Origin: a virus
Virus record (IMG/VR): IMGVR_UViG_3300036834_000231
Coordinates: 1 to 64,000 of that record
Length of the DNA: 64,000 nt
Reading direction: 5' to 3' (one strand)
The notes beneath the pieces were generated by a model that saw only the letters and a program-made list of their open reading frames with translations, was not told the origin of the DNA and ran no database searches. Within the stretch, counting starts at the first letter, position 1. Each line of letters begins with the position of its first letter. Made by a program: the position numbers and the translations under genes. Shown piece after piece: positions 390-53,792 of the stretch.

Positions 390-3300
390 ATGCCCGAAGA
401 CAACACCATATTCGTACAGATCGTCGCCGATGGCGAGCCTGTGCAAGCGGCGATGAAGCAGATGCTCGCCGATGTAAAGGGTGCGCTGCAGACGCTAGAA
501 GCGGAAGCCAAGAAAACGAGCGCCGTTTTGACGGCCATGGCGCCGGGTGAGCCGCAGAGGGCGGCGTTTCGGGACTATGCCAATGTCGTCAAAGTCCAGA
601 TCGCCGACATCGAGAAGCAGCTAGACGACTACAACAACAAATGGGATGAACTGCGCAGCCGCATCGGGAGTTCTTTAGACGCCTTTGCCAAATATGAGCG
701 GGCGGCGACGACGGGCCGCGGTCCCTATCAGACGGAGGAAAAGACCTATCGGCCGGGGCAAATTTTGCCCAGAAAGGTCGTGACGGAAGCGCGCGAGGGG
801 TTGGCGGAGGCCCGCCAAGACTTGGAAATCGCCAAGCCGGAAATGGAGGCCTTGGCGGCGAGCGGCTTCGCTTTTCGCGAGAAGGTTTTGGCGACGGCCC
901 AAGCGCCCGGCCGGGCAGATATTGGGATAGGTTTACCCAAGGCGCTGCTAGGTCCTTCGAAGGAGGATAGGGCCAAGGAGGCGGAGGAAAGGGCCAAAGC
1001 CGCAGCCGAAGCAGCCGCGAAGGAAGAGGAGGAAAGTGCCGCCCGGGCAAAACGAGACGCTGAATTTTTTGCGAGCTATAAAGCGGCCAAAGAGAAGGCA
1101 GCGAGCCTGGAGCCTGCTCCCGTCGCAGCCCCCAGCGAAGCGGCCGCGCCACCGATTCCTCCAGTCGCTCCCCCTCCCCCCATTGCCGCAGCTCCACCGC
1201 CCACTCCGCCCACTCCGCCCGTCGTGGCGGCGGCTCCTCCCCCGCCGCCGCCCGACGATCCTCTCACTCGTCAACGTGAGAAGGTGGAACTGCTCAAGCG
1301 GAGCTATGCGGAAAAGAATGCCGACGTCCTGCGCTATTCCCAAGAAGAGGTCATTGCACAAAAAGCTACCGGCCAGTCGGTTGAAGAGCTAAAGCTTAAA
1401 CAAGAGCAACTGAACTATCAGACGAAGGAACAAGAGACCGTCGTCAGAGACCACGTCGCGAGTTTAAACGAGTTCATCGAGACCAACAAAAAGAAGGCCA
1501 CCTTTGGAGAACAGGCCGCCGGGATTGCCGACAAAGAGCGGCAACTTCTTTCGCAGCAAATTGAAAAGCGCGATCAGTTAAAAGTCCGGCAAGAGCAAAA
1601 CGCGCAGGCTCTCGAACGTGAGTTAGCGCTGCTCGGCAAGGAAGCGCATAGCGATGAGTTTGCGCGCACCATCGATCAGCGGGCGCAAATCGGCGCGGAA
1701 CTCGAAAAAGAACAAGCGCACTTGGGGTTGCTTGAGCGCTCCTATGCCTTGGCAGCGGAAGAAGACGCGCGCGCGACTGGCGAGAAGGTCACAGGCGAGG
1801 GGCAGAAACAATCGGCGGTCCGTCAAACAGCGGCCGTCGAAGCGGAAGCCACGAAAGCCGCGACCTCATCCGTCAGCGATCTGCAGCTCAAGGGAGCGCA
1901 GCTCGCCGCAGAACAACGCCAAGTAGCCCAAGACATTACGGCGGCGCAGCGCCAACAGGCGGCGGCCAGCAAGGCCAACGCCGATTCGGCGGGAGAATTG
2001 GGTGCAAAGCAACACGAGCTTCGCACCAGGATCTCCGAAACCGGCGCCTCGATCAAGCAATTGACGAGCGACTCGGAGGCCTGGCGGGAACGCGCGGCGG
2101 CCGGCGATGCGGATGCGGAGGGCCATCAGGCCAGAATCCAGCAGCGATTAGGAGAGTTGCACACCGCGCGGGCGAACGATCTGACTCAGCTCGATGAAGT
2201 CAGGAAGCAACTCGTAGCGAACAAAGCGGCGGAAGTCGAAGCGAACAACCCGGCGCCGGTCGACGCATTAATCCGTAAATACAACGAACTGACCGAGAAG
2301 CTTCGCCAGAACAAAGCTGAACTGGCGACGGCGACCACGCTCGCGCATATAGCCGGCGGTGCGCCTCCTCCGCCAACCGGCGGCGGCGGGGCTCCTCCTA
2401 CCAGCGGGGGCGGCGGCGGGGAAGAAGATGCGCTCTTGCGCCAACGCCAGGAGCTGACGGCGCTGAGAAAGCTACGCGCCGAACTCGCGAGCGAAAGCAA
2501 CCGCTATGCGACCGACGAACAAGTGGCAACCCGCGCCACCGGTCAGGCGGTGAATGAACTCCGGACGCAGCGCGAAGTTTTGCTCGCCGGCTACCGCGAT
2601 GCGGAACATTCCGTCAGGCAGCTCGCGGACGCTGCCTTCCAGATGGGCGCAAACGAGAAAGGAGCGGCTTCGGCGACAGTTGCCGGTCTCGAAGTAGCCA
2701 CTGAGCGTAGCAACCTATACAAAATTGCCGTTCAGAACATCGACCAGGCTCTGGCTGAGGAGCAAGCGCGCGAAGACGCGGCGGCGCACAAAGATCGCTA
2801 CGCCGAAGTCACTACGCAATTAAAGCAAGTCGACGCAAAGATCAAGGAGTCGACGCAAAACCTCGAGTTGATGGAGCGCACCGTCGCGGCCTTGGGGCAA
2901 GACAGCAAAACGAGCGCCGATGCCGCCATAGCTGGTGAAGCGGCCAAGCAATCTGCGGTGCGCGACACAACCGCGGCGCAGACGGATGGAGCGGCTACGG
3001 CGGCGGATGCGCAAACGGCCGGCGCGGCGCGCACCATGAGCGCGCTCGATGAAGAGCAGCTCAAGCTGTTCCTGCTCAGCCGCGAACAAGCTCGCGTGGG
3101 ACAGGAAGCGCGCCGGGTCGAACAGGAGCAGACGACCGCCCGCTCCGCAAGCGGCGAGCAGATCGAGGCCTTGCGGGCGAAGCAAGAGATCCTCAAGGCG
3201 CAGCTCGGCTCCGTCAGCCAGGAGTATAAAAAGCTCGCGGCGGACACCGCCCTTTGGAAGCAGGCTTCCGACCAAGGCTCGGCGAGCGCTAAGCAGAATG

Positions 3301-6300
3301 TCGACCAGTTGACCAGCAAGATGGAGGCGCTCCTTGCTAAAGAGGCCGAGTATCAAGCGGAACTCAAGCGCACTAACGAACTGCTCAAGGCAGAGGAAGC
3401 CGCTTTTGCCCAAGCCAATAACCCCGCGCAAATAGAGCCGCTGATAGCCCGTATTTCCGAACTGAACGCGCAGATCACCAAGACCAAGGAGCGCATCGGC
3501 GAATTGCAGCCGGTGACTGAGCAGATCGGTAGTAGCGCTGGCGCGGGGATGGGCAAAGCGCGCGTGTTGATGGCGGCTCTGACCGACCAAACCAACGCGG
3601 CGATTTACGGGTTTACGCGACTGATCGCGTCGATACCCGGTCTTGCCGCAGCGGTAGAAGCGGCCTTCGCCTTCGCCGCTCCGATTGCGGCCTACGAGAT
3701 TATTTCGAGCCTAGTCAGCGGCGTCTATAAGCTATATGAAAACTACGTTCTTTTGAAGCACGCCGAAGAGGAGACGGCGGCGGTATCGGATCGTTTGCAA
3801 AAAGCTTTTCGCACCGAATGGGAGCGCACCGAGGAACTCCTCGCCGCGCAAGCCGAGTACCGGGGAAACCTGGTCGAGGCGGCCAAGATTCGCTCCAATA
3901 TCGCAGCCACCAAACCGATCGATCTGCGTGATTTCCTCAAGCCAGAGGAAATCGATGAAAAATTCAAGGACCTGCCGAGACGCTTCCAGGACCAACTCAA
4001 AGAGGCCTTCCGGGTAGGGCCGGAAAAATTTGATTTGGTCGGACCTAATGTCGTCACCAAACTGAACGACTTCAAGAAAAATCTGGCCGATGTTCAAGTA
4101 GAGATTAAAAAGGCCACCGATGCCCAGACGGCGCTGGTAGCCTCGCAAAAGGAATTGTTCAAAGGCCAGGGTTCGAGCCGCGGCGAAGCTGCGGCAGCCG
4201 TGGGGATCCAGATTTATGAGCAAGAGCGCCTGCAGCGCCTGTATGAATTGCTGGCAAAGATTTACACCCAGGCCATTCAGGAGATTGCGCAGAAACGCGA
4301 TACCGATGCGGCGCAAGCCGTGGACGCAGCAGACAAGTTAGAGCAGGCGACGCTTCGCGAGCTGATTCGTGGCACTACCGAGAAAGTCGATGCGCTGAAA
4401 ACCCGCCACCAATACACGGTTGCGGCGGAAATAGCGCTCTGGCAGGATGTGCTCGCGCAGGCGGAAAAGGGCGGCGGCCGGCACACCGCGCTGTACGAAC
4501 AGGTCTACGGCAAACTGGCCGCGCTCGCGAAACGCGGCACGCGCGAGATCCTCGACGAGATGAAGCAGGCAGACCAACAAGCGTTGGCCGATCTCGAAGA
4601 GCAGCAGGAGCTCACGCTCGAACAAAAGAAGAAGTTTTTGGAATCGCGCAAATCACCCGAACCGGCGCCCCCGGTATTGGGAGCACATCGTCAACCAGGC
4701 GAAGCCGCGCCTGCGCCTCTGCCGATTGGGCCCGCAGGGCCTCCCGCAGCCCCGCTGCCGCCGAAGGCCCTGCAGTATCAAGGCCTGGTTGGTGAAGCAA
4801 CCGCCAAGTACGGTCTGCCGCCGAACCTGCTCAATAATCTGATCGGCGCCGAGAGCGGTTGGGATGAACATGCGCTCTCCCTGAGGGGTGCGCAGGGCTT
4901 GACGCAGTTGATGCCCGGAACTGCCGCCGAGCTAGGCGTGAATCCGCTCGATCCGAAAGGCGCAATCGAGGGCGGAGCGAAGTACCTGCATGATCGCTTC
5001 GTGGAGTTCGGCGATTGGACGAAGGCGCTCCAGGCTTACAATGCCGGCGCTGGCGCGGTGCGGGCGGCGGAGGCCCACCATACGCCGCTGCGTCCCGAAA
5101 CGCAGGATTATGTTGCTAAGATCAGCACCGGCACGACGGCGCTCGCCGGCACCGCAGCAGCGGTCAGTGCATTGACCGAAGCCACTCGCAAGCATAACGC
5201 GGAGCTTAAGCACCAGATCGGACTCGTTGACCAGCAGATCTATCGCCAGGAGGCCGAAAAGACTCTCGCCGGGCATCGGGAGCGGATCGAGGGAATCACC
5301 ACCGAAGAAGGGCGCCCGGATTACACCAAACAGCTCGACGCTTGGAAGGAGGTCTTAGCCCAGGCGCGCGCTTTGCGCGCTACCCAACCGGGTCTTGCCG
5401 AGCATCTCGAAACCGGCGCGGAGAAAGAGGTCGGCCGCCTCGCGCCCGAAGCCGACCGCCAACAGCAGCGGGAGAGGGTCGATGACGCGCGCCGAGCGTT
5501 CAAAGAGTACGACGCAGAAGAAAAGCGCTCGACCGCCAACGAACTGCTGTATTGGGAGACGATCGTCAAGCAGGCGAAGGCGGGCTCCCTCCTCTACAAC
5601 GTTGCGTTAGATGAAGTCGCCCAGTACACGAAGAAGTTGAATGACGAAAACTATCGGAACGGCCAGCAAGACCTCATCAATCAACACGAGATCGCGCAAG
5701 CAAAATTCGATATCCGCAGGGCCGAAATCGAGAGCGACTATGCCATGTCGGAGCAGACCTACCGCGATAAGGTTCACGAGCTTGAACGCATCAAGGCTCT
5801 CGACAAGGAACTCTTAAAAGAGGAGCAGGATTATTGGGACAAGCGCATTGCGTTCGCCCGATCACACGGGGAGGAGCGGGAAGAATCCAAGCTAGGGGCT
5901 GAAAAAACCGCTGCTGGGCGGCGCGCGAATGAAGTCCTTTTAAAGGACAACCTCAAGCTGACGGAGGAGATGGAGAAGCAGTGGCAAAAAGTTTTCAACT
6001 TTATCGACCAGCAATTTATCAGCGCCTTCAATAGTTGGCTCACCGGCCATCAGAAATTTTCGGCCGCCATGGTCAAGATGTGGAACCAGATTGTGCAGCA
6101 TGTCGAGGACGCTTTGTTGCAGTTGGTCCTGAAATTTGCCGAACACGAATTGAAAATCCTGCTGCAACACGTGTTAACGAACAAAGCCAAGACAGCGGAC
6201 GATGATATGACTGCGGCGACGTCCCTAGCGATTTCCAAAGAAAAGACTATAAAAGATATTTTCATGGACGCCAAAGGTGCGGCGGCTACGGCCTTTCGTC

Positions 6301-6662
6301 AAGCAATGAAATTGCCGCCCCCAATCAATTTCATCTTGGCTCCCATCTTGGCGGCCGCGGCTTTTGTGGGCGTCATGGCGTTTGCCGCCTTCGAAAAGGG
6401 CGGCATCGTCCCGAACACCGGCCTGGCGATGGTGCATGGCGGCGAAGGCGTGCTGCCGCAACCGCTGACGAGCATGCTCACGAGCGTCGCAACGAATTAC
6501 AACACGAACACGAGCACCGGCGGCAACTCGCATGTGCATGTGCACTATTCACCGACCATTCAAGGAGCGGGCGGCGGCGGGGATATGAGAATGATGTTGA
6601 GCCAGCACGCCGATCACATCGGGCGCATCGTGCAGCGGCAGTTGAAGACCTTCAATCGTTGA
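390..6662 (+). CDS. tail tape measure protein with lytic transglycosylase (SLT) domain
   Basis: 2090 aa Ala/Glu/Lys-rich helical protein; SLT motifs IGAESGW..GAQGLTQLMPGTA..GAKYL..AYNAG at ~4775-5125; C-terminal FEKGGIVP..VHGGEGVLP typical of tape measure proteins. Confidence 0.92.
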   Translation: MPEDNTIFVQIVADGEPVQAAMKQMLADVKGALQTLEAEAKKTSAVLTAMAPGEPQRAAFRDYANVVKVQIADIEKQLDDYNNKWDELRSRIGSSLDAFAKYERAATTGRGPYQTEEKTYRPGQILPRKVVTEAREGLAEARQDLEIAKPEMEALAASGFAFREKVLATAQAPGRADIGIGLPKALLGPSKEDRAKEAEERAKAAAEAAAKEEEESAARAKRDAEFFASYKAAKEKAASLEPAPVAAPSEAAAPPIPPVAPPPPIAAAPPPTPPTPPVVAAAPPPPPPDDPLTRQREKVELLKRSYAEKNADVLRYSQEEVIAQKATGQSVEELKLKQEQLNYQTKEQETVVRDHVASLNEFIETNKKKATFGEQAAGIADKERQLLSQQIEKRDQLKVRQEQNAQALERELALLGKEAHSDEFARTIDQRAQIGAELEKEQAHLGLLERSYALAAEEDARATGEKVTGEGQKQSAVRQTAAVEAEATKAATSSVSDLQLKGAQLAAEQRQVAQDITAAQRQQAAASKANADSAGELGAKQHELRTRISETGASIKQLTSDSEAWRERAAAGDADAEGHQARIQQRLGELHTARANDLTQLDEVRKQLVANKAAEVEANNPAPVDALIRKYNELTEKLRQNKAELATATTLAHIAGGAPPPPTGGGGAPPTSGGGGGEEDALLRQRQELTALRKLRAELASESNRYATDEQVATRATGQAVNELRTQREVLLAGYRDAEHSVRQLADAAFQMGANEKGAASATVAGLEVATERSNLYKIAVQNIDQALAEEQAREDAAAHKDRYAEVTTQLKQVDAKIKESTQNLELMERTVAALGQDSKTSADAAIAGEAAKQSAVRDTTAAQTDGAATAADAQTAGAARTMSALDEEQLKLFLLSREQARVGQEARRVEQEQTTARSASGEQIEALRAKQEILKAQLGSVSQEYKKLAADTALWKQASDQGSASAKQNVDQLTSKMEALLAKEAEYQAELKRTNELLKAEEAAFAQANNPAQIEPLIARISELNAQITKTKERIGELQPVTEQIGSSAGAGMGKARVLMAALTDQTNAAIYGFTRLIASIPGLAAAVEAAFAFAAPIAAYEIISSLVSGVYKLYENYVLLKHAEEETAAVSDRLQKAFRTEWERTEELLAAQAEYRGNLVEAAKIRSNIAATKPIDLRDFLKPEEIDEKFKDLPRRFQDQLKEAFRVGPEKFDLVGPNVVTKLNDFKKNLADVQVEIKKATDAQTALVASQKELFKGQGSSRGEAAAAVGIQIYEQERLQRLYELLAKIYTQAIQEIAQKRDTDAAQAVDAADKLEQATLRELIRGTTEKVDALKTRHQYTVAAEIALWQDVLAQAEKGGGRHTALYEQVYGKLAALAKRGTREILDEMKQADQQALADLEEQQELTLEQKKKFLESRKSPEPAPPVLGAHRQPGEAAPAPLPIGPAGPPAAPLPPKALQYQGLVGEATAKYGLPPNLLNNLIGAESGWDEHALSLRGAQGLTQLMPGTAAELGVNPLDPKGAIEGGAKYLHDRFVEFGDWTKALQAYNAGAGAVRAAEAHHTPLRPETQDYVAKISTGTTALAGTAAAVSALTEATRKHNAELKHQIGLVDQQIYRQEAEKTLAGHRERIEGITTEEGRPDYTKQLDAWKEVLAQARALRATQPGLAEHLETGAEKEVGRLAPEADRQQQRERVDDARRAFKEYDAEEKRSTANELLYWETIVKQAKAGSLLYNVALDEVAQYTKKLNDENYRNGQQDLINQHEIAQAKFDIRRAEIESDYAMSEQTYRDKVHELERIKALDKELLKEEQDYWDKRIAFARSHGEEREESKLGAEKTAAGRRANEVLLKDNLKLTEEMEKQWQKVFNFIDQQFISAFNSWLTGHQKFSAAMVKMWNQIVQHVEDALLQLVLKFAEHELKILLQHVLTNKAKTADDDMTAATSLAISKEKTIKDIFMDAKGAAATAFRQAMKLPPPINFILAPILAAAAFVGVMAFAAFEKGGIVPNTGLAMVHGGEGVLPQPLTSMLTSVATNYNTNTSTGGNSHVHVHYSPTIQGAGGGGDMRMMLSQHADHIGRIVQRQLKTFNR

Positions 6663-51838: not shown

Positions 51839-51992
51839 TGCGCAGTCCCCCCGTCCTTTAGGCGCGCTGTCCGCTGCAGCCGATCATGAAAGTACCGCGC
51901 GCGCGAGCCGTTGGCGTTCTTGGGTTTCCGGTACCTAACCCGGGCAAGATTGTGCAACGCGTCTTTCAGGACCACGGGATTTTTCAACCGTT

Positions 51993-52523
51993 TCATTGTG
52001 CTGTTTCCTCCTCTATTCCTGTCGAATCCTCAGGCGCATTCAGATCTACTCCGAGTGCACCTAACTGCTCAATCACGTCGGCTTCGAACGCCGAGAACGC
52101 GAGCGCGCTCCAGTTGATGGCTCCATCGCTAACGGCGCCGTCACTGCCAAAGTCCTCGAGATACTGCCCATCGTGCTCGGAATAGAGCAAGCATTCTTGC
52201 GCCTGCGCGGTGTAGATGACGCGTTGTGAGCCGTCTATCGTCTCGCGAATGTGCTCTATGAGCCACTCGCGCAGGGTTTCGCCTCGTTCGCCGTCTTTGA
52301 TCCGGCGCGACAGTTCGTCTTTGATAGAGTCCGCAATGCTCCGCACGTCGGACCAGTAATCCGCGCGCGCCAATTGCTTGCCGAAGTCGGCGGGATCAGT
52401 TTTGATCCGTACGTAATCGTTCGCGTCCGTCGAGTGCAGAAACGTCGCTATTACTTCGCCGTCGAGTGTGACGGTTGTCAGTTCGCCCGAGGCTTTCGGC
52501 CAAACGGTCTCATATTTCGCCAT
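51993..52523 (-). CDS. acidic protein, possibly Ocr-like DNA mimic
   Basis: LIEHIRETIDG..VIY pattern reminiscent of Ocr IH..AD..V..Y; strongly acidic C-terminal half. Confidence 0.45.
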   Translation of the reverse strand: MAKYETVWPKASGELTTVTLDGEVIATFLHSTDANDYVRIKTDPADFGKQLARADYWSDVRSIADSIKDELSRRIKDGERGETLREWLIEHIRETIDGSQRVIYTAQAQECLLYSEHDGQYLEDFGSDGAVSDGAINWSALAFSAFEADVIEQLGALGVDLNAPEDSTGIEEETAQ

Positions 52524-52537
52524 AAGTTAAAATTCAT

Positions 52538-52605
52538 CCTCCCTACACGGGCAGCCCATCAGCCGACCGTGTTTCGTCGCCATTCGCGGTACTCGTCAGG
52601 AGAGG
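52538..52605 (-). ncRNA. hammerhead ribozyme (type I topology)
   Basis: Minus strand CCUCUC-CUGACGA-GU..AC-GAAA-CACGG..CCGUG-U-A-GGGAGG: full core, stems I-III, GUA cleavage triplet. Confidence 0.85.
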
Positions 52606-53048
52606 TCCTCCGTGCGAAATTGTTTTGCCTCCTCCTCTTCTGGCCGTAGTTCGTCGGCTAACTCCGCACGGACCACACGTTTGTAATTTCCGTCAGCGTT
52701 GACAATGCCCCAGAGACCAGCCCGTTCGCTCGTCTTACGAACCTCTCCGTCTTCATCCGGTAACCAGGCGATAATGCCGATTCGCTCTTTGATTTCGGAT
52801 GGTTCGATATCGCCATCCGCGCAATCGTCTGCGTCTGGCCGTTCTTCGAACTCCACCCCGTTTTCGGCCGCCCATGTCTCGGCGGCCGCCAGTTCGATTG
52901 CACAGCGTGTGCGCCCTTCGATCGAGGTCTCCGTTTTCGGGTCATAGGACCATCCAGCGTGCTCGAAGAAAAATGCCTGCTGGGTAGTCAGAGCTTGAGT
53001 AGGCTGCTCTTGCTTCGGCTGTTTGGTTTTAGGTTTAGGTTTAGTCAT
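52596..53048 (-). CDS. hypothetical early-region protein flanked by hammerheads
   Basis: FFFEHAGWSYDP..E..GR.RCA..LA.AE..GLWGI motif; its stop TGA lies inside the ribozyme CUGA. Confidence 0.65.
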   Translation of the reverse strand: MTKPKPKTKQPKQEQPTQALTTQQAFFFEHAGWSYDPKTETSIEGRTRCAIELAAAETWAAENGVEFEERPDADDCADGDIEPSEIKERIGIIAWLPDEDGEVRKTSERAGLWGIVNADGNYKRVVRAELADELRPEEEEAKQFRTEDLS

Positions 53049-53055
53049 AGGTTTC

Positions 53056-53123
53056 ATCCCGACTAGTGCGCCGAGCATGCGCGCGCTAGTTTCGTCCGAA
53101 TTCCACGGAGCTCGTCAGGGGAT
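53056..53123 (-). ncRNA. hammerhead ribozyme (type I topology)
   Basis: Minus strand AUCCC-CUGACGA-G(C)UCCG..CGGAC-GAAA-CUAG..CUAG-U-C-GGGAU: full core, GUC cleavage triplet. Confidence 0.88.
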
Positions 53124-53563
53124 TAGACTGCATCGGCGAACGGAAACACCTGCCCTTCTAGCGCTTTGCGCCCGTCTAATCCCGCGAAATACACCTTGCC
53201 ATTAGGCCAAACACGTACGCATGAGTCGCTCAATTCTGCTCCGCTAAGATCAGGATGAACGGAACGCCACTCGTCAAACGATCGGTACAGTTTGCCCTGG
53301 TACAGATGTGCGAAAACGAGCGTGCGTTCAAGTAGCGAATAGTGCGATCCGATGACACCTTCGCGATATCCCGATACGCGATGATGTACCCACGCTGGAC
53401 TCGTCCGATACCAAGGCGCATCCCATACGCGCGCCAGTGCAGTATCTAGCTCGGTATTCGTCTGCTGAAAGTGCAGACAGCTATCCAGCGAATCATTAAC
53501 GAGCGACTTAGCGCGCCGCTCATGCTCTAACGCTGCCTTAAAGTGCCGCGATGTTTTACTCAT
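53123..53563 (-). CDS. hypothetical early-region protein
   Basis: GGAGG RBS; stop codon abuts the hammerhead. Confidence 0.55.
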   Translation of the reverse strand: MSKTSRHFKAALEHERRAKSLVNDSLDSCLHFQQTNTELDTALARVWDAPWYRTSPAWVHHRVSGYREGVIGSHYSLLERTLVFAHLYQGKLYRSFDEWRSVHPDLSGAELSDSCVRVWPNGKVYFAGLDGRKALEGQVFPFADAV

Positions 53564-53792
53564 GCGTGTGTTCCTCCCGAGTCCAGGGCCCATAGTTCCT
53601 TCGGCCACCATTCGATTCTGTTTCGCGCGTTGCGCCACAGGCGCAGGTATCCACGTACGTCACATTGCCGTGGGCGCATTGCCGCGCTGGATTGTGCGAG
53701 CACTCCGCCGGCGTTACACAGTGCAGCCATGCCCGCACTGTGCTCTTAGCCTGTACAGCCTTATGCGTGTGCGGGCGCCGTCTCGGTGTCAT
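53556..53792 (-). CDS. small His/Cys-rich phage protein
   Basis: AHGNVTYVDTCACGATRETESNG..YGPW. Confidence 0.55.
   Translation of the reverse strand: MTPRRRPHTHKAVQAKSTVRAWLHCVTPAECSHNPARQCAHGNVTYVDTCACGATRETESNGGRRNYGPWTREEHTHE

What the first reader, a model, noticed from the sequence alone, without database searches (positions are those of the whole stretch)
52538..53123. Two hammerhead ribozymes bracket one gene in a phage small-gene operon
Seen: on the minus (coding) strand two intergenic elements have the complete hammerhead core (CUGACGA / GAAA / NUH). Stems I-III all pair although the stem sequences differ between copies. Predicted cuts are after GUC (between 53061/53060) and GUA (52544/52543). 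Each starts at the upstream stop codon, and one stop UGA is the CUGA of the core. The 3' strand of stem I (GGGAUG / GGGAGG) is the purine-rich leader of the next gene. Known: hammerheads occur in phage operons but their role is largely unknown. Inference: self-cleavage cuts the early mRNA into units with 5'-OH ends and frees a sequestered SD, and ribosome termination could gate folding.
Basis: partly seen in the sequence, partly recalled or inferred. Interest (0 to 1): 0.88.

Follow-up and report, generated by a model that had tools for sequence, protein, structure and literature searches.

The report
Two hammerhead ribozymes flanking phage gene
Two small self-cutting RNA motifs (hammerhead ribozymes) sit on either side of one small gene in a soil phage's operon and probably chop the long message into single-gene pieces; this layout has been known in phages since 2011, so this is a clean new example, not a new kind of system.

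Summary
On the minus strand, 53123-53056 (HH1) and 52605-52538 (HH2) are complete type I hammerhead motifs. Predicted cuts lie at 53061/53060 and 52544/52543, which would release a 517-nt piece carrying gene B. My descriptor finds only these two in the 96-kb phage record, against 0.01 expected per simulated genome. A covariance model built from 75 hammerheads of other phages scores them 38 and 37 bits (E about 1e-9); the next best hit scores 13.6. Rfam models miss them, but they also miss nearly all such phage hammerheads.

Gene A's UAA abuts stem I of HH1, and gene B's UGA is U4-G5-A6 of the HH2 core. A survey of 80 other phage type I hammerheads shows both layouts are common.

A homolog of gene B in another phage (L179) carries a hammerhead in the same place with the same geometry: stem I 3' strand as Shine-Dalgarno (SD), 7 nt, AUGACUAA. 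That supports SD masking for HH1; for HH2 the 14-nt spacing is poor.

HH1 also has a 10-bp competitor helix inside gene A, which hints at translation-dependent cutting. Nothing was tested biochemically. The arrangement was described by Perreault et al. 2011, and this scan has met it in over 245 genomes: a new member of a known kind.

The parts
53056..53123 (-). HH1, type I hammerhead (68 nt); predicted cut after C17 between 53061 and 53060
   Evidence: Sequence; descriptor; fold; model R1 gives 38.4 bits, E 1.2e-9
52538..52605 (-). HH2, type I hammerhead (68 nt); predicted cut after A17 between 52544 and 52543; core U4-G5-A6 (52598-52596) is gene B's stop codon
   Evidence: Sequence; descriptor; folds (stem I pair probability about 0.92); model R1 gives 37.1 bits, E 3.1e-9
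53174..53183 (-). GGGAUUAGAC inside gene A: a perfect 10-bp complement of 53128-53119 (GUCUAAUCCC, i.e. stop UAA plus the stem I 5' strand of HH1); a predicted competitor ('lock') helix
   Evidence: Folds: duplex -14.9 against -5.5 kcal/mol for stem I, and the hammerhead fold is 12.3 kcal/mol worse in context. Shuffle null about 2e-4
53123..53638 (-). Gene A (up to 171 aa; the start is uncertain, and AUG 53563 has the best SD); stop UAA abuts HH1
   Evidence: ORF list; sequence; no Pfam or PHROG match
52596..53048 (-). Gene B, the bracketed gene (150 aa from AUG 53048, or 153 aa from AUG 53057); a conserved phage family of unknown function
   Evidence: Homologs; 47 viral loci; start inferred from the L179 layout
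51993..52523 (-). Gene C (176 aa), which starts 20 nt after the HH2 cut; a conserved family of unknown function
   Evidence: Homologs; no Pfam or PHROG match
52544..53060 (-). Predicted 517-nt product released by both cuts: 5'-OH GGGAU leader, gene B, and the HH2 body as a structured 3' end with a 2',3'-cyclic phosphate
   Evidence: Inference from the cut sites and established hammerhead chemistry

Best explanation
Both elements are type I hammerhead self-cleaving ribozymes transcribed as part of the minus-strand small-gene operon. Each folds at a gene junction and cuts the polycistronic RNA.

HH1 would separate gene A from gene B, and HH2 would separate gene B from gene C. Together they release a 517-nt monocistronic gene B message.

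Because the topology is type I, nearly the whole ribozyme stays on the upstream product as a structured 3' end carrying a 2',3'-cyclic phosphate. The downstream product begins with a 5'-OH and only the 5-6 nt stem I strand. For gene B that strand is the SD-like leader, 12 nt before AUG 53048.

The likely consequence is that neighbouring cistrons acquire separate stabilities and translation rates. For gene B, a masked ribosome site would also be exposed.

Shown here: the motif, its statistics, its class membership and the comparative layout. Inferred: cleavage itself and all of its consequences.
For: - The complete core, three helices and a non-G cleavage nucleotide are present in both elements.
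- There are only two such sites in 96 kb, both intergenic and on the coding strand. 0.01 are expected per genome, and none of comparable strength appeared in 300 simulated genomes.
- The minimum-free-energy folds are the hammerhead junction. The HH2 fold persists in 176-261-nt contexts.
- A covariance model built only from 75 hammerheads of other phage contigs scores the two at 38.4 and 37.1 bits. The next best hit in the genome scores 13.6 bits.
- That class shows strong covariation: 91.7% of cells paired against 63% when shuffled, and 15 of 17 pairs with compensatory changes.
- The same class forms arrays of up to 9 copies per 6.6 kb in other phages.
- In contig L179 a gene B homolog is preceded by a 54-bit type I hammerhead with the same geometry. 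It has different stem I and stem III sequences that still pair. In L168 a homolog is preceded by a type II hammerhead.
- Clustered prophage hammerheads flanking single genes cleave in vitro and in E. coli (PMC3088659).
- An SD held in stem I of a type I hammerhead is released by cleavage in engineered E. coli switches (PMC7445771).
Against: - There is no biochemical or RNA-end evidence; no RNA run holds this sequence.
- Rfam hammerhead models give no hit even at E<=10. However, they recognise only 1 of the dozens of descriptor hammerheads in control loci.
- Both stems II carry bulges next to the core, unlike most class members.
- No stem I / loop II tertiary contact was identified.
- In longer context the HH1 fold is predicted to lose to a 10-bp upstream helix by 12.3 kcal/mol. 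It also loses to another alternative fold by 3.5 kcal/mol.
- The training set for model R1 was seeded with a pattern taken from these two elements, so the core part of the score is circular.
- No orthologous phage was available to test conservation of HH2.
Confidence: 0.75

Rival explanations
1. Translation-gated relay. HH1 is held inactive on naked RNA by the 10-bp helix between gene A codons (53183-53174) and the stop codon plus stem I strand (53128-53119). Ribosomes translating gene A melt this helix and license cleavage, which then unmasks gene B's SD. At HH2, ribosomes terminating on the core UGA block folding, so cutting depends on the translation rate of gene B.
For: - The 10-bp perfect complement has a shuffle null of about 2e-4.
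- It forms as soon as the stem I strand is transcribed, and outcompetes stem I at -14.9 against -5.5 kcal/mol.
- The stop codons lie in or next to the ribozymes.
- In a survey, 28 of 80 other phage type I hammerheads use the core UGA as the stop and 32 have the stop flush with stem I.
- The SD-in-stem-I geometry is shared with L179.
Against: - The upstream lock helix is not a class feature; observed equals null in 88 elements.
- It was noticed post hoc.
- Flush stop codons could simply reflect tight gene packing in phages.
- Only about 6 of 91 class members have the SD in stem I.
- HH2's SD spacing of 14 nt is poor.
- Thermodynamic folds ignore tertiary stabilisation of the hammerhead core.
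Confidence: 0.2
2. The motifs are inactive relics or chance look-alikes and have no RNA-level function.
For: - No Rfam match.
- Bulged stems II.
- The HH1 fold is disfavoured in context.
- R1 scores are at the low end of the class, 37-38 bits against 45-72 bits for most members.
Against: - Two complete motifs 517 nt apart, both exactly filling gene junctions on the coding strand, against 0.01 expected per genome.
- All invariant core positions are intact.
- A homologous hammerhead-plus-gene-B layout occurs in L179.
Confidence: 0.1
3. The hammerhead with its short leader is chiefly a portable cassette boundary. It travels with the downstream gene and serves as a recombination junction for swapping accessory genes. 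Cleavage is secondary.
For: - Hammerhead plus gene B recurs in L179 with the same AUGACUAA start.
- In the source sample, a low-depth variant (about 4x against 40x) shares HH1 and the first codons of gene B. It then diverges between 53041 and 51942.
- Gene C homologs elsewhere lack hammerheads, so the association is with particular cassettes.
Against: - Only 3 of 57 gene B family loci have an upstream hammerhead.
- The variant is known only from 30-base graph overlaps.
- This does not explain conservation of a full catalytic core.
Confidence: 0.1
4. The doubly cut 517-nt gene B fragment is circularised, either by hammerhead reverse reaction or by a host RtcB-type ligase, giving a stable circular mRNA.
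For: The fragment would carry 5'-OH and 2',3'-cyclic phosphate ends. Both stem I 3' strands begin with GGGA.
Against: - The hybrid stem I (HH2 5' strand with HH1 3' strand) is weak, -2.2 kcal/mol.
- No RtcB or RNA ligase is encoded in the phage record.
- Perreault et al. looked for circular or spliced products in similar arrays and detected none.
Confidence: 0.03

Closest known systems
Clustered hammerhead ribozymes flanking single genes or short gene blocks in prophages (Perreault et al. 2011, PMC3088659; Agrobacterium tumefaciens, Azorhizobium caulinodans, Clostridium scindens)
   Same: Several hammerheads lie close together, on the coding strand, between phage genes whose identities are not constant. 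The proposed role is processing of a long transcript into gene-length mRNAs.
   Different: Here there are only two copies, both type I, in an uncultivated soil phage. The stop codon overlaps the core, stem I is SD-like, and HH1 has a 10-bp upstream competitor. That paper does not mention stop codons, ribosomes or translation.
Rfam Hammerhead_1 (RF00163) and Hammerhead_HH9 (RF02275)
   Same: Same catalytic core, and the same type I connectivity for RF00163.
   Different: No match at E<=10. These elements have 26-27-nt stem III hairpins, bulged stems II and a short open stem I. The Rfam models also miss almost all comparable phage hammerheads.
Engineered type I hammerhead switches in E. coli with the SD inside an extended stem I (described in PMC7445771 and the work it cites)
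   Same: The ribosome site is paired in stem I, and cleavage frees it and turns on translation.
   Different: Those are synthetic and ligand-controlled, with a deliberately extended stem I. Here stem I is 5-6 bp, natural, and has no aptamer. This is a functional analogy, not family membership.
Type I hammerhead upstream of a gene B homolog in IMG/VR contig 3300005518_000004 (locus L179, 2931-2995)
   Same: Same order of parts: stop UAA, stem I, core, near-identical stem II and loop, stem III, GUH, SD-like stem I strand, 7 nt, AUGACUAA. The downstream gene is from the same family.
   Different: Stem I and stem III sequences differ while keeping pairing. L179 has a canonical GGAGG, no stem II bulge, no second hammerhead after the gene, and no 10-bp upstream lock.

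Membership tests
Hammerhead ribozyme (type I) | Invariant core C3 U4 G5 A6 N7 G8 A9 and G12 A13 A14 | tested here: met
   CUGACGA and GAAA are present in both elements at the right places
Hammerhead ribozyme (type I) | A15.1-U16.1 pair and a non-G nucleotide at position 17 (cleavage site) | tested here: met
   GUC in HH1 and GUA in HH2
Hammerhead ribozyme (type I) | Three helices around the core, with stems II and III closed and stem I open | tested here: met
   Stem I is 5 and 6 bp. Stem II is 5 bp with a 1- or 2-nt bulge. Stem III is 8-9 bp with one mismatch. The minimum-free-energy fold equals this fold in the ~80-nt context
Hammerhead ribozyme (type I) | Tertiary contact between stem I and loop II (or a pseudoknot), needed for fast cleavage at cellular Mg2+ | tested here: inconclusive
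   No convincing partner was found by eye. Loop II of HH1 (UGGAAUU) resembles the recurrent UGRRAAUU loops of the class and the loop of L179
Hammerhead ribozyme (type I) | Match to the curated Rfam covariance models | tested here: not met
   No hit at the gathering score or at E<=10. Control: Rfam recognises only 1 of the many descriptor hammerheads in 14 phage loci, so the test has little power here
Hammerhead ribozyme (type I) | Match to a covariance model of phage type I hammerheads from other contigs | tested here: met
   38.4 and 37.1 bits, E about 1e-9; the next best in 96 kb is 13.6 bits. Caveat: the training loci were found with a core pattern taken from these elements
Hammerhead ribozyme (type I) | Site-specific Mg2+-dependent self-cleavage giving 2',3'-cyclic phosphate and 5'-OH ends | not testable with these tools
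   No RNA run holds the sequence
Clustered phage hammerheads flanking genes (Perreault 2011) | Two or more hammerheads within a few kb, on the coding strand, between genes of a phage or prophage | tested here: met
   Two copies 517 nt apart at consecutive gene junctions of a minus-strand operon, in a virus record with tail, DnaB, RecT and methyltransferase genes

The most novel reading that the evidence does not exclude
HH1 may be a translation-licensed ribozyme relay. On untranslated RNA, a 10-bp helix between gene A codons and the stop codon plus stem I strand keeps the hammerhead from forming. Ribosomes translating gene A would open it, and the ribozyme would then cut and expose the SD of gene B held in stem I. 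Expression of gene B from processed mRNA would thus depend on translation of gene A. HH2, whose core contains gene B's stop codon, would be the mirror case: terminating ribosomes delay cutting.
Probability: 0.2. Interest if true: 0.65.

Novelty: new member of a known kind. Interest (0 to 1): 0.33.

Why it matters
The biological role of the thousands of hammerheads in phage operons is still described as elusive (PMC6765202).

This locus is a compact two-ribozyme, one-gene test case. It combines three features that connect cutting to translation and that can be mutated separately:
- a stop codon inside the catalytic core (HH2);
- a ribosome-binding sequence inside stem I (HH1, shared with a homologous cassette in another phage);
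- a strong upstream competitor helix inside the preceding ORF (HH1).

It does not reveal a new kind of system. Its value is as a well-defined substrate for the experiment the field lacks.

Tried and rejected
- **Rfam.** No family reached the gathering score in the window or the rest of the genome. There were no hammerhead hits at E<=10 or E<=1, and none for RF00163 or RF02275 on the whole record. The control shows this is uninformative.
- **Close relatives.** blastn against the phage collection found no match. Close-relative scans with genes A, B and C singly found none.
- The 98.9-kb contig that carries the nearest gene C homolog (P0002) could therefore not be examined.
- **Gene C homolog loci.** 9 viral and 24 metagenomic loci were checked. 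No hammerheads were found apart from one weak core-variant hit after the gene in L151.
- **Gene B homologs in bacterial genomes.** 9 loci, no hammerhead.
- **Sequencing runs.** No RNA holder is listed. Laid contigs of two soil DNA runs gave no RNA information, and the second run does not cover the ribozymes.
- **Function of genes A, B and C.** No Pfam, PHROG or Atlas lead.
- **RNA repair genes.** The phage record encodes no RtcB or RNA ligase.
- **Circularisation.** A hybrid stem I is weak, -2.2 kcal/mol.
- **Upstream lock helix as a class-wide feature.** Rejected; observed equals null.
- **Literature.** Jimenez et al. 2011 (JBC) is not held in the library.
- **Not used.** Structure prediction and complex prediction; they do not bear on an RNA finding.

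Full report
**What the window is.** The window is the first 64 kb of a 96,282-bp IMG/VR virus record, estimated 86% complete, with no end repeats. The only runs that hold it are soil metagenomes. It encodes a tail protein, a DnaB-type helicase, a RecT-like protein, a radical SAM protein and DNA methyltransferases.

The finding lies in a minus-strand block of about twenty small genes between roughly 56.9 and 49.5 kb. Most are preceded by GGAGG/GGGAGG-type ribosome sites 4-10 nt from the start. None of the seven genes tested around the finding matches Pfam or PHROGs. Nothing shows that the block is 'early'.

**The observation.**
- HH1 (53123-53056) reads: AUCCC, CUGACGA, an 18-nt stem II hairpin, GAAA, a 27-nt stem III hairpin, UC, GGGAU.
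- HH2 (52605-52538) reads: CCUCUC, CUGACGA, a 17-nt stem II hairpin, GAAA, a 26-nt stem III hairpin, UA, GGGAGG.
- The order stem I strand, core, stem II, GAAA, stem III, UH, stem I strand is the type I topology.
- The cleavage nucleotides are C 53061 and A 52544.
- Gene A ends with UAA at 53125-53123, so its last base is the first stem I base.
- Gene B ends with UGA at 52598-52596, which is U4-G5-A6 of the HH2 core.
- Both stems II have a bulge just after the first one or two pairs, and both stems III have one internal mismatch.
- RNAfold returns the three-way junction as the minimum-free-energy and centroid fold of each ~80-nt element. The energies themselves are not unusual (z -0.2 and -1.2).

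**Is it more than chance?** The bare pattern CUGANGA...GAAA is not: 3 found against 3.0 expected. The whole architecture is. A descriptor requiring the core, a closed stem II, the A-U pair, a closed stem III, a non-G at position 17 and at least 4 bp of stem I finds exactly these two sites in the 96-kb record. It averages 0.01 sites per genome in 300 first-order Markov simulations, with none as strong.

**Rfam.** No family reaches its gathering score in the window or in the rest of the genome. No hammerhead model hits at E<=10. This turned out to have little weight. In 14 phage loci containing dozens of descriptor hammerheads, Rfam reported only one, at 36 bits against a cut-off of 34.

**The class these belong to.** My descriptor found 120 type I hammerheads in 69 of them, in arrays of up to eight per 6.6 kb. 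The model later added a ninth in L085.

I aligned 75 non-redundant examples, none from this window (A2), and built covariance model R1. With filters off, over the whole genome, R1 gives 38.4 bits (E 1.2e-9) for HH1 and 37.1 bits (E 3.1e-9) for HH2. The next hit is 13.6 bits.

On 86 model hits the three helices covary strongly:
- 91.7% of cells are paired, against 63% in shuffles and 32-48% in slid controls.
- 15 of 17 pairs show compensatory changes.

Two caveats apply. The loci were found with a core pattern taken from the two elements, so the core part of the score is circular. The two also score at the low end of the class.

**Stop codons and start sites across the class.** Of 80 such hammerheads with an upstream ORF of at least 40 codons (78 of them from other contigs), 28 use the core UGA as the stop. 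Another 32 have the stop 4-7 nt before C3, that is, flush with stem I. Both layouts in this window are therefore typical.

Downstream, the next start is mostly 20-45 nt from the cut. Of 91 elements, 81 have an SD plus start within 70 nt, but only about six have the SD motif beginning inside the stem I 3' strand.

**A homologous cassette.** Gene B belongs to a conserved family found in 47 viral loci and 9 bacterial genome loci, the closest of them Acidobacteriota MAGs.
- In one viral locus, L179, a 54-bit type I hammerhead lies immediately upstream of the homolog.
- Its layout is: stop UAA, CCUCC, CUGAUGAG, a stem II and loop nearly identical to HH1's, GAAAC, a different but fully paired stem III, GUA, GGAGG, 7 nt, AUGACUAAG.
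- HH1 has GGGAU, 7 nt, AUGACUAAA.
- The shared geometry argues that gene B starts at AUG 53048, 12 nt after the cut, and that the stem I 3' strand is its ribosome site.
- Stem I differs between the two while keeping its pairing.
- In L168 a type II hammerhead (Rfam, 41 bits) precedes another homolog.
- The other homolog loci tested show none.
- Gene C homologs in 33 loci essentially lack hammerheads.

This agrees with the published remark that the flanked genes are not constant.

**Folding in context.** HH2 keeps its fold in 176- and 261-nt contexts, with stem I pair probability about 0.92.

HH1 does not. GGGAUUAGAC at 53183-53174, inside gene A, is a perfect 10-bp complement of GUCUAAUCCC at 53128-53119, which is the stop codon plus the stem I 5' strand.
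- The duplex is -14.9 kcal/mol, against -5.5 for stem I.
- It forms in every growing-transcript fold as soon as it is available.
- It makes the hammerhead fold 12.3 kcal/mol worse.
- A helix of this length arises in about 2e-4 of shuffles. It is not a feature of the other 87 elements tested.
- Even without the upstream strand, another alternative fold is 3.5 kcal/mol better.

These energies ignore the tertiary stabilisation of the hammerhead core. They do say that HH1 is either a weak ribozyme or one that needs the upstream strand to be occupied, for example by a translating ribosome.

**Mechanism.** The best-supported reading is the published one: self-cleavage of the operon transcript at gene junctions (PMC3088659, where comparable prophage arrays cleaved in vitro and in E. 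coli).

What the type I topology adds follows from hammerhead chemistry. The upstream product keeps the ribozyme body and a cyclic phosphate as a structured 3' end. The downstream product starts with a 5'-OH and a 5-6-nt leader.

For gene B that leader is the SD. That cleavage can free an SD paired in stem I of a type I hammerhead is established in engineered E. coli switches (PMC7445771). For gene C, GGGAGG matches the operon's SD but lies 14 nt from the AUG.

Translation gating is compatible with the stop-in-core layout and the HH1 competitor, but it is untested. I give it about 0.2.

**Known or new.** Reviews still call the role of bacterial and phage hammerheads elusive (PMC6765202). The arrangement itself has been known since 2011. 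Earlier reports of this scan list the same kind of array in at least 245 other genomes, including notes on stop codons flush with the ribozyme and ribosome sites in the closing stem. I re-tested those two points on type I elements here. This is a new member of a known kind: a tidy two-ribozyme case with one unusual local feature, the HH1 competitor helix.

**Limits.**
- No RNA data exist for this sequence.
- No function could be assigned to genes A, B or C.

Noticed in passing
window 51913-51942 and 53041-53070: In the probable source soil run, low-depth contigs (about 4x against 40x) branch off at these two 30-base overlaps. A minor variant therefore seems to share HH1 and the first codons of gene B (AUGACUAA), then carries different sequence across gene B, HH2 and gene C. 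The new sequence stays open in gene B's frame for the 30 bases shown.
   Followed up: partly
loci L010-L129 (IMG/VR), e.g. L085:2989-6430, L024:5676-10569, L122:500-3542: Type I hammerheads are abundant in viral contigs and form arrays of 6-9 copies spaced by single small genes. Within an array the stem I sequence is often the same in all copies (CCCC/GGGG in L085, CCGC/GCGG in L122), while stems II and III vary.
   Followed up: partly
same loci, survey of 80 elements (78 from other contigs): The upstream ORF's stop codon is the core UGA in 28 of 80 cases and lies flush with stem I in another 32. The papers I could read do not mention this (PMC3088659 has no occurrence of 'stop codon', 'ribosome' or 'translation').
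   Followed up: yes
same loci, first 28 nt after the cut: The stem I 3' strand is often followed by its own complement, so the 3' product could begin with a small terminal hairpin. At least 4 bp occur in 64% of 90 elements, against 43% when the tail is shuffled. Both window elements show only weak versions: 3 bp in HH1 and 4 bp in HH2.
   Followed up: partly
L054:11611-11665 (-) and L046:8169-8230 (+): Twister-P5 ribozymes (Rfam, 60 and 43.5 bits) lie in the same phage loci as type I hammerheads, a co-occurrence already noted in the literature.
   Followed up: no
window 53563-53790: Gene A's start is uncertain. The listed GTG 53638 has no ribosome site, whereas in-frame AUG 53563 follows GGGAGG by 9 nt. 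That would leave about 225 nt after the previous gene (which ends at 53789) without an obvious gene or known RNA family.
   Followed up: partly
L151:2278-2339: Directly after a gene C homolog lies a hammerhead-shaped element with CCGGAGGAG in place of CUGANGAG (22 bits). It may be a degenerate or variant core.
   Followed up: no
window 390-6662: The 2090-aa ORF has a strikingly high A-over-T skew (0.26-0.29) compared with the rest of the window. It was not examined.
   Followed up: no
L203-L205, L211: The closest gene B homologs in bacterial genomes are in Acidobacteriota MAGs. This is a weak hint at the host phylum, consistent with the soil source and 59% G+C.
   Followed up: no
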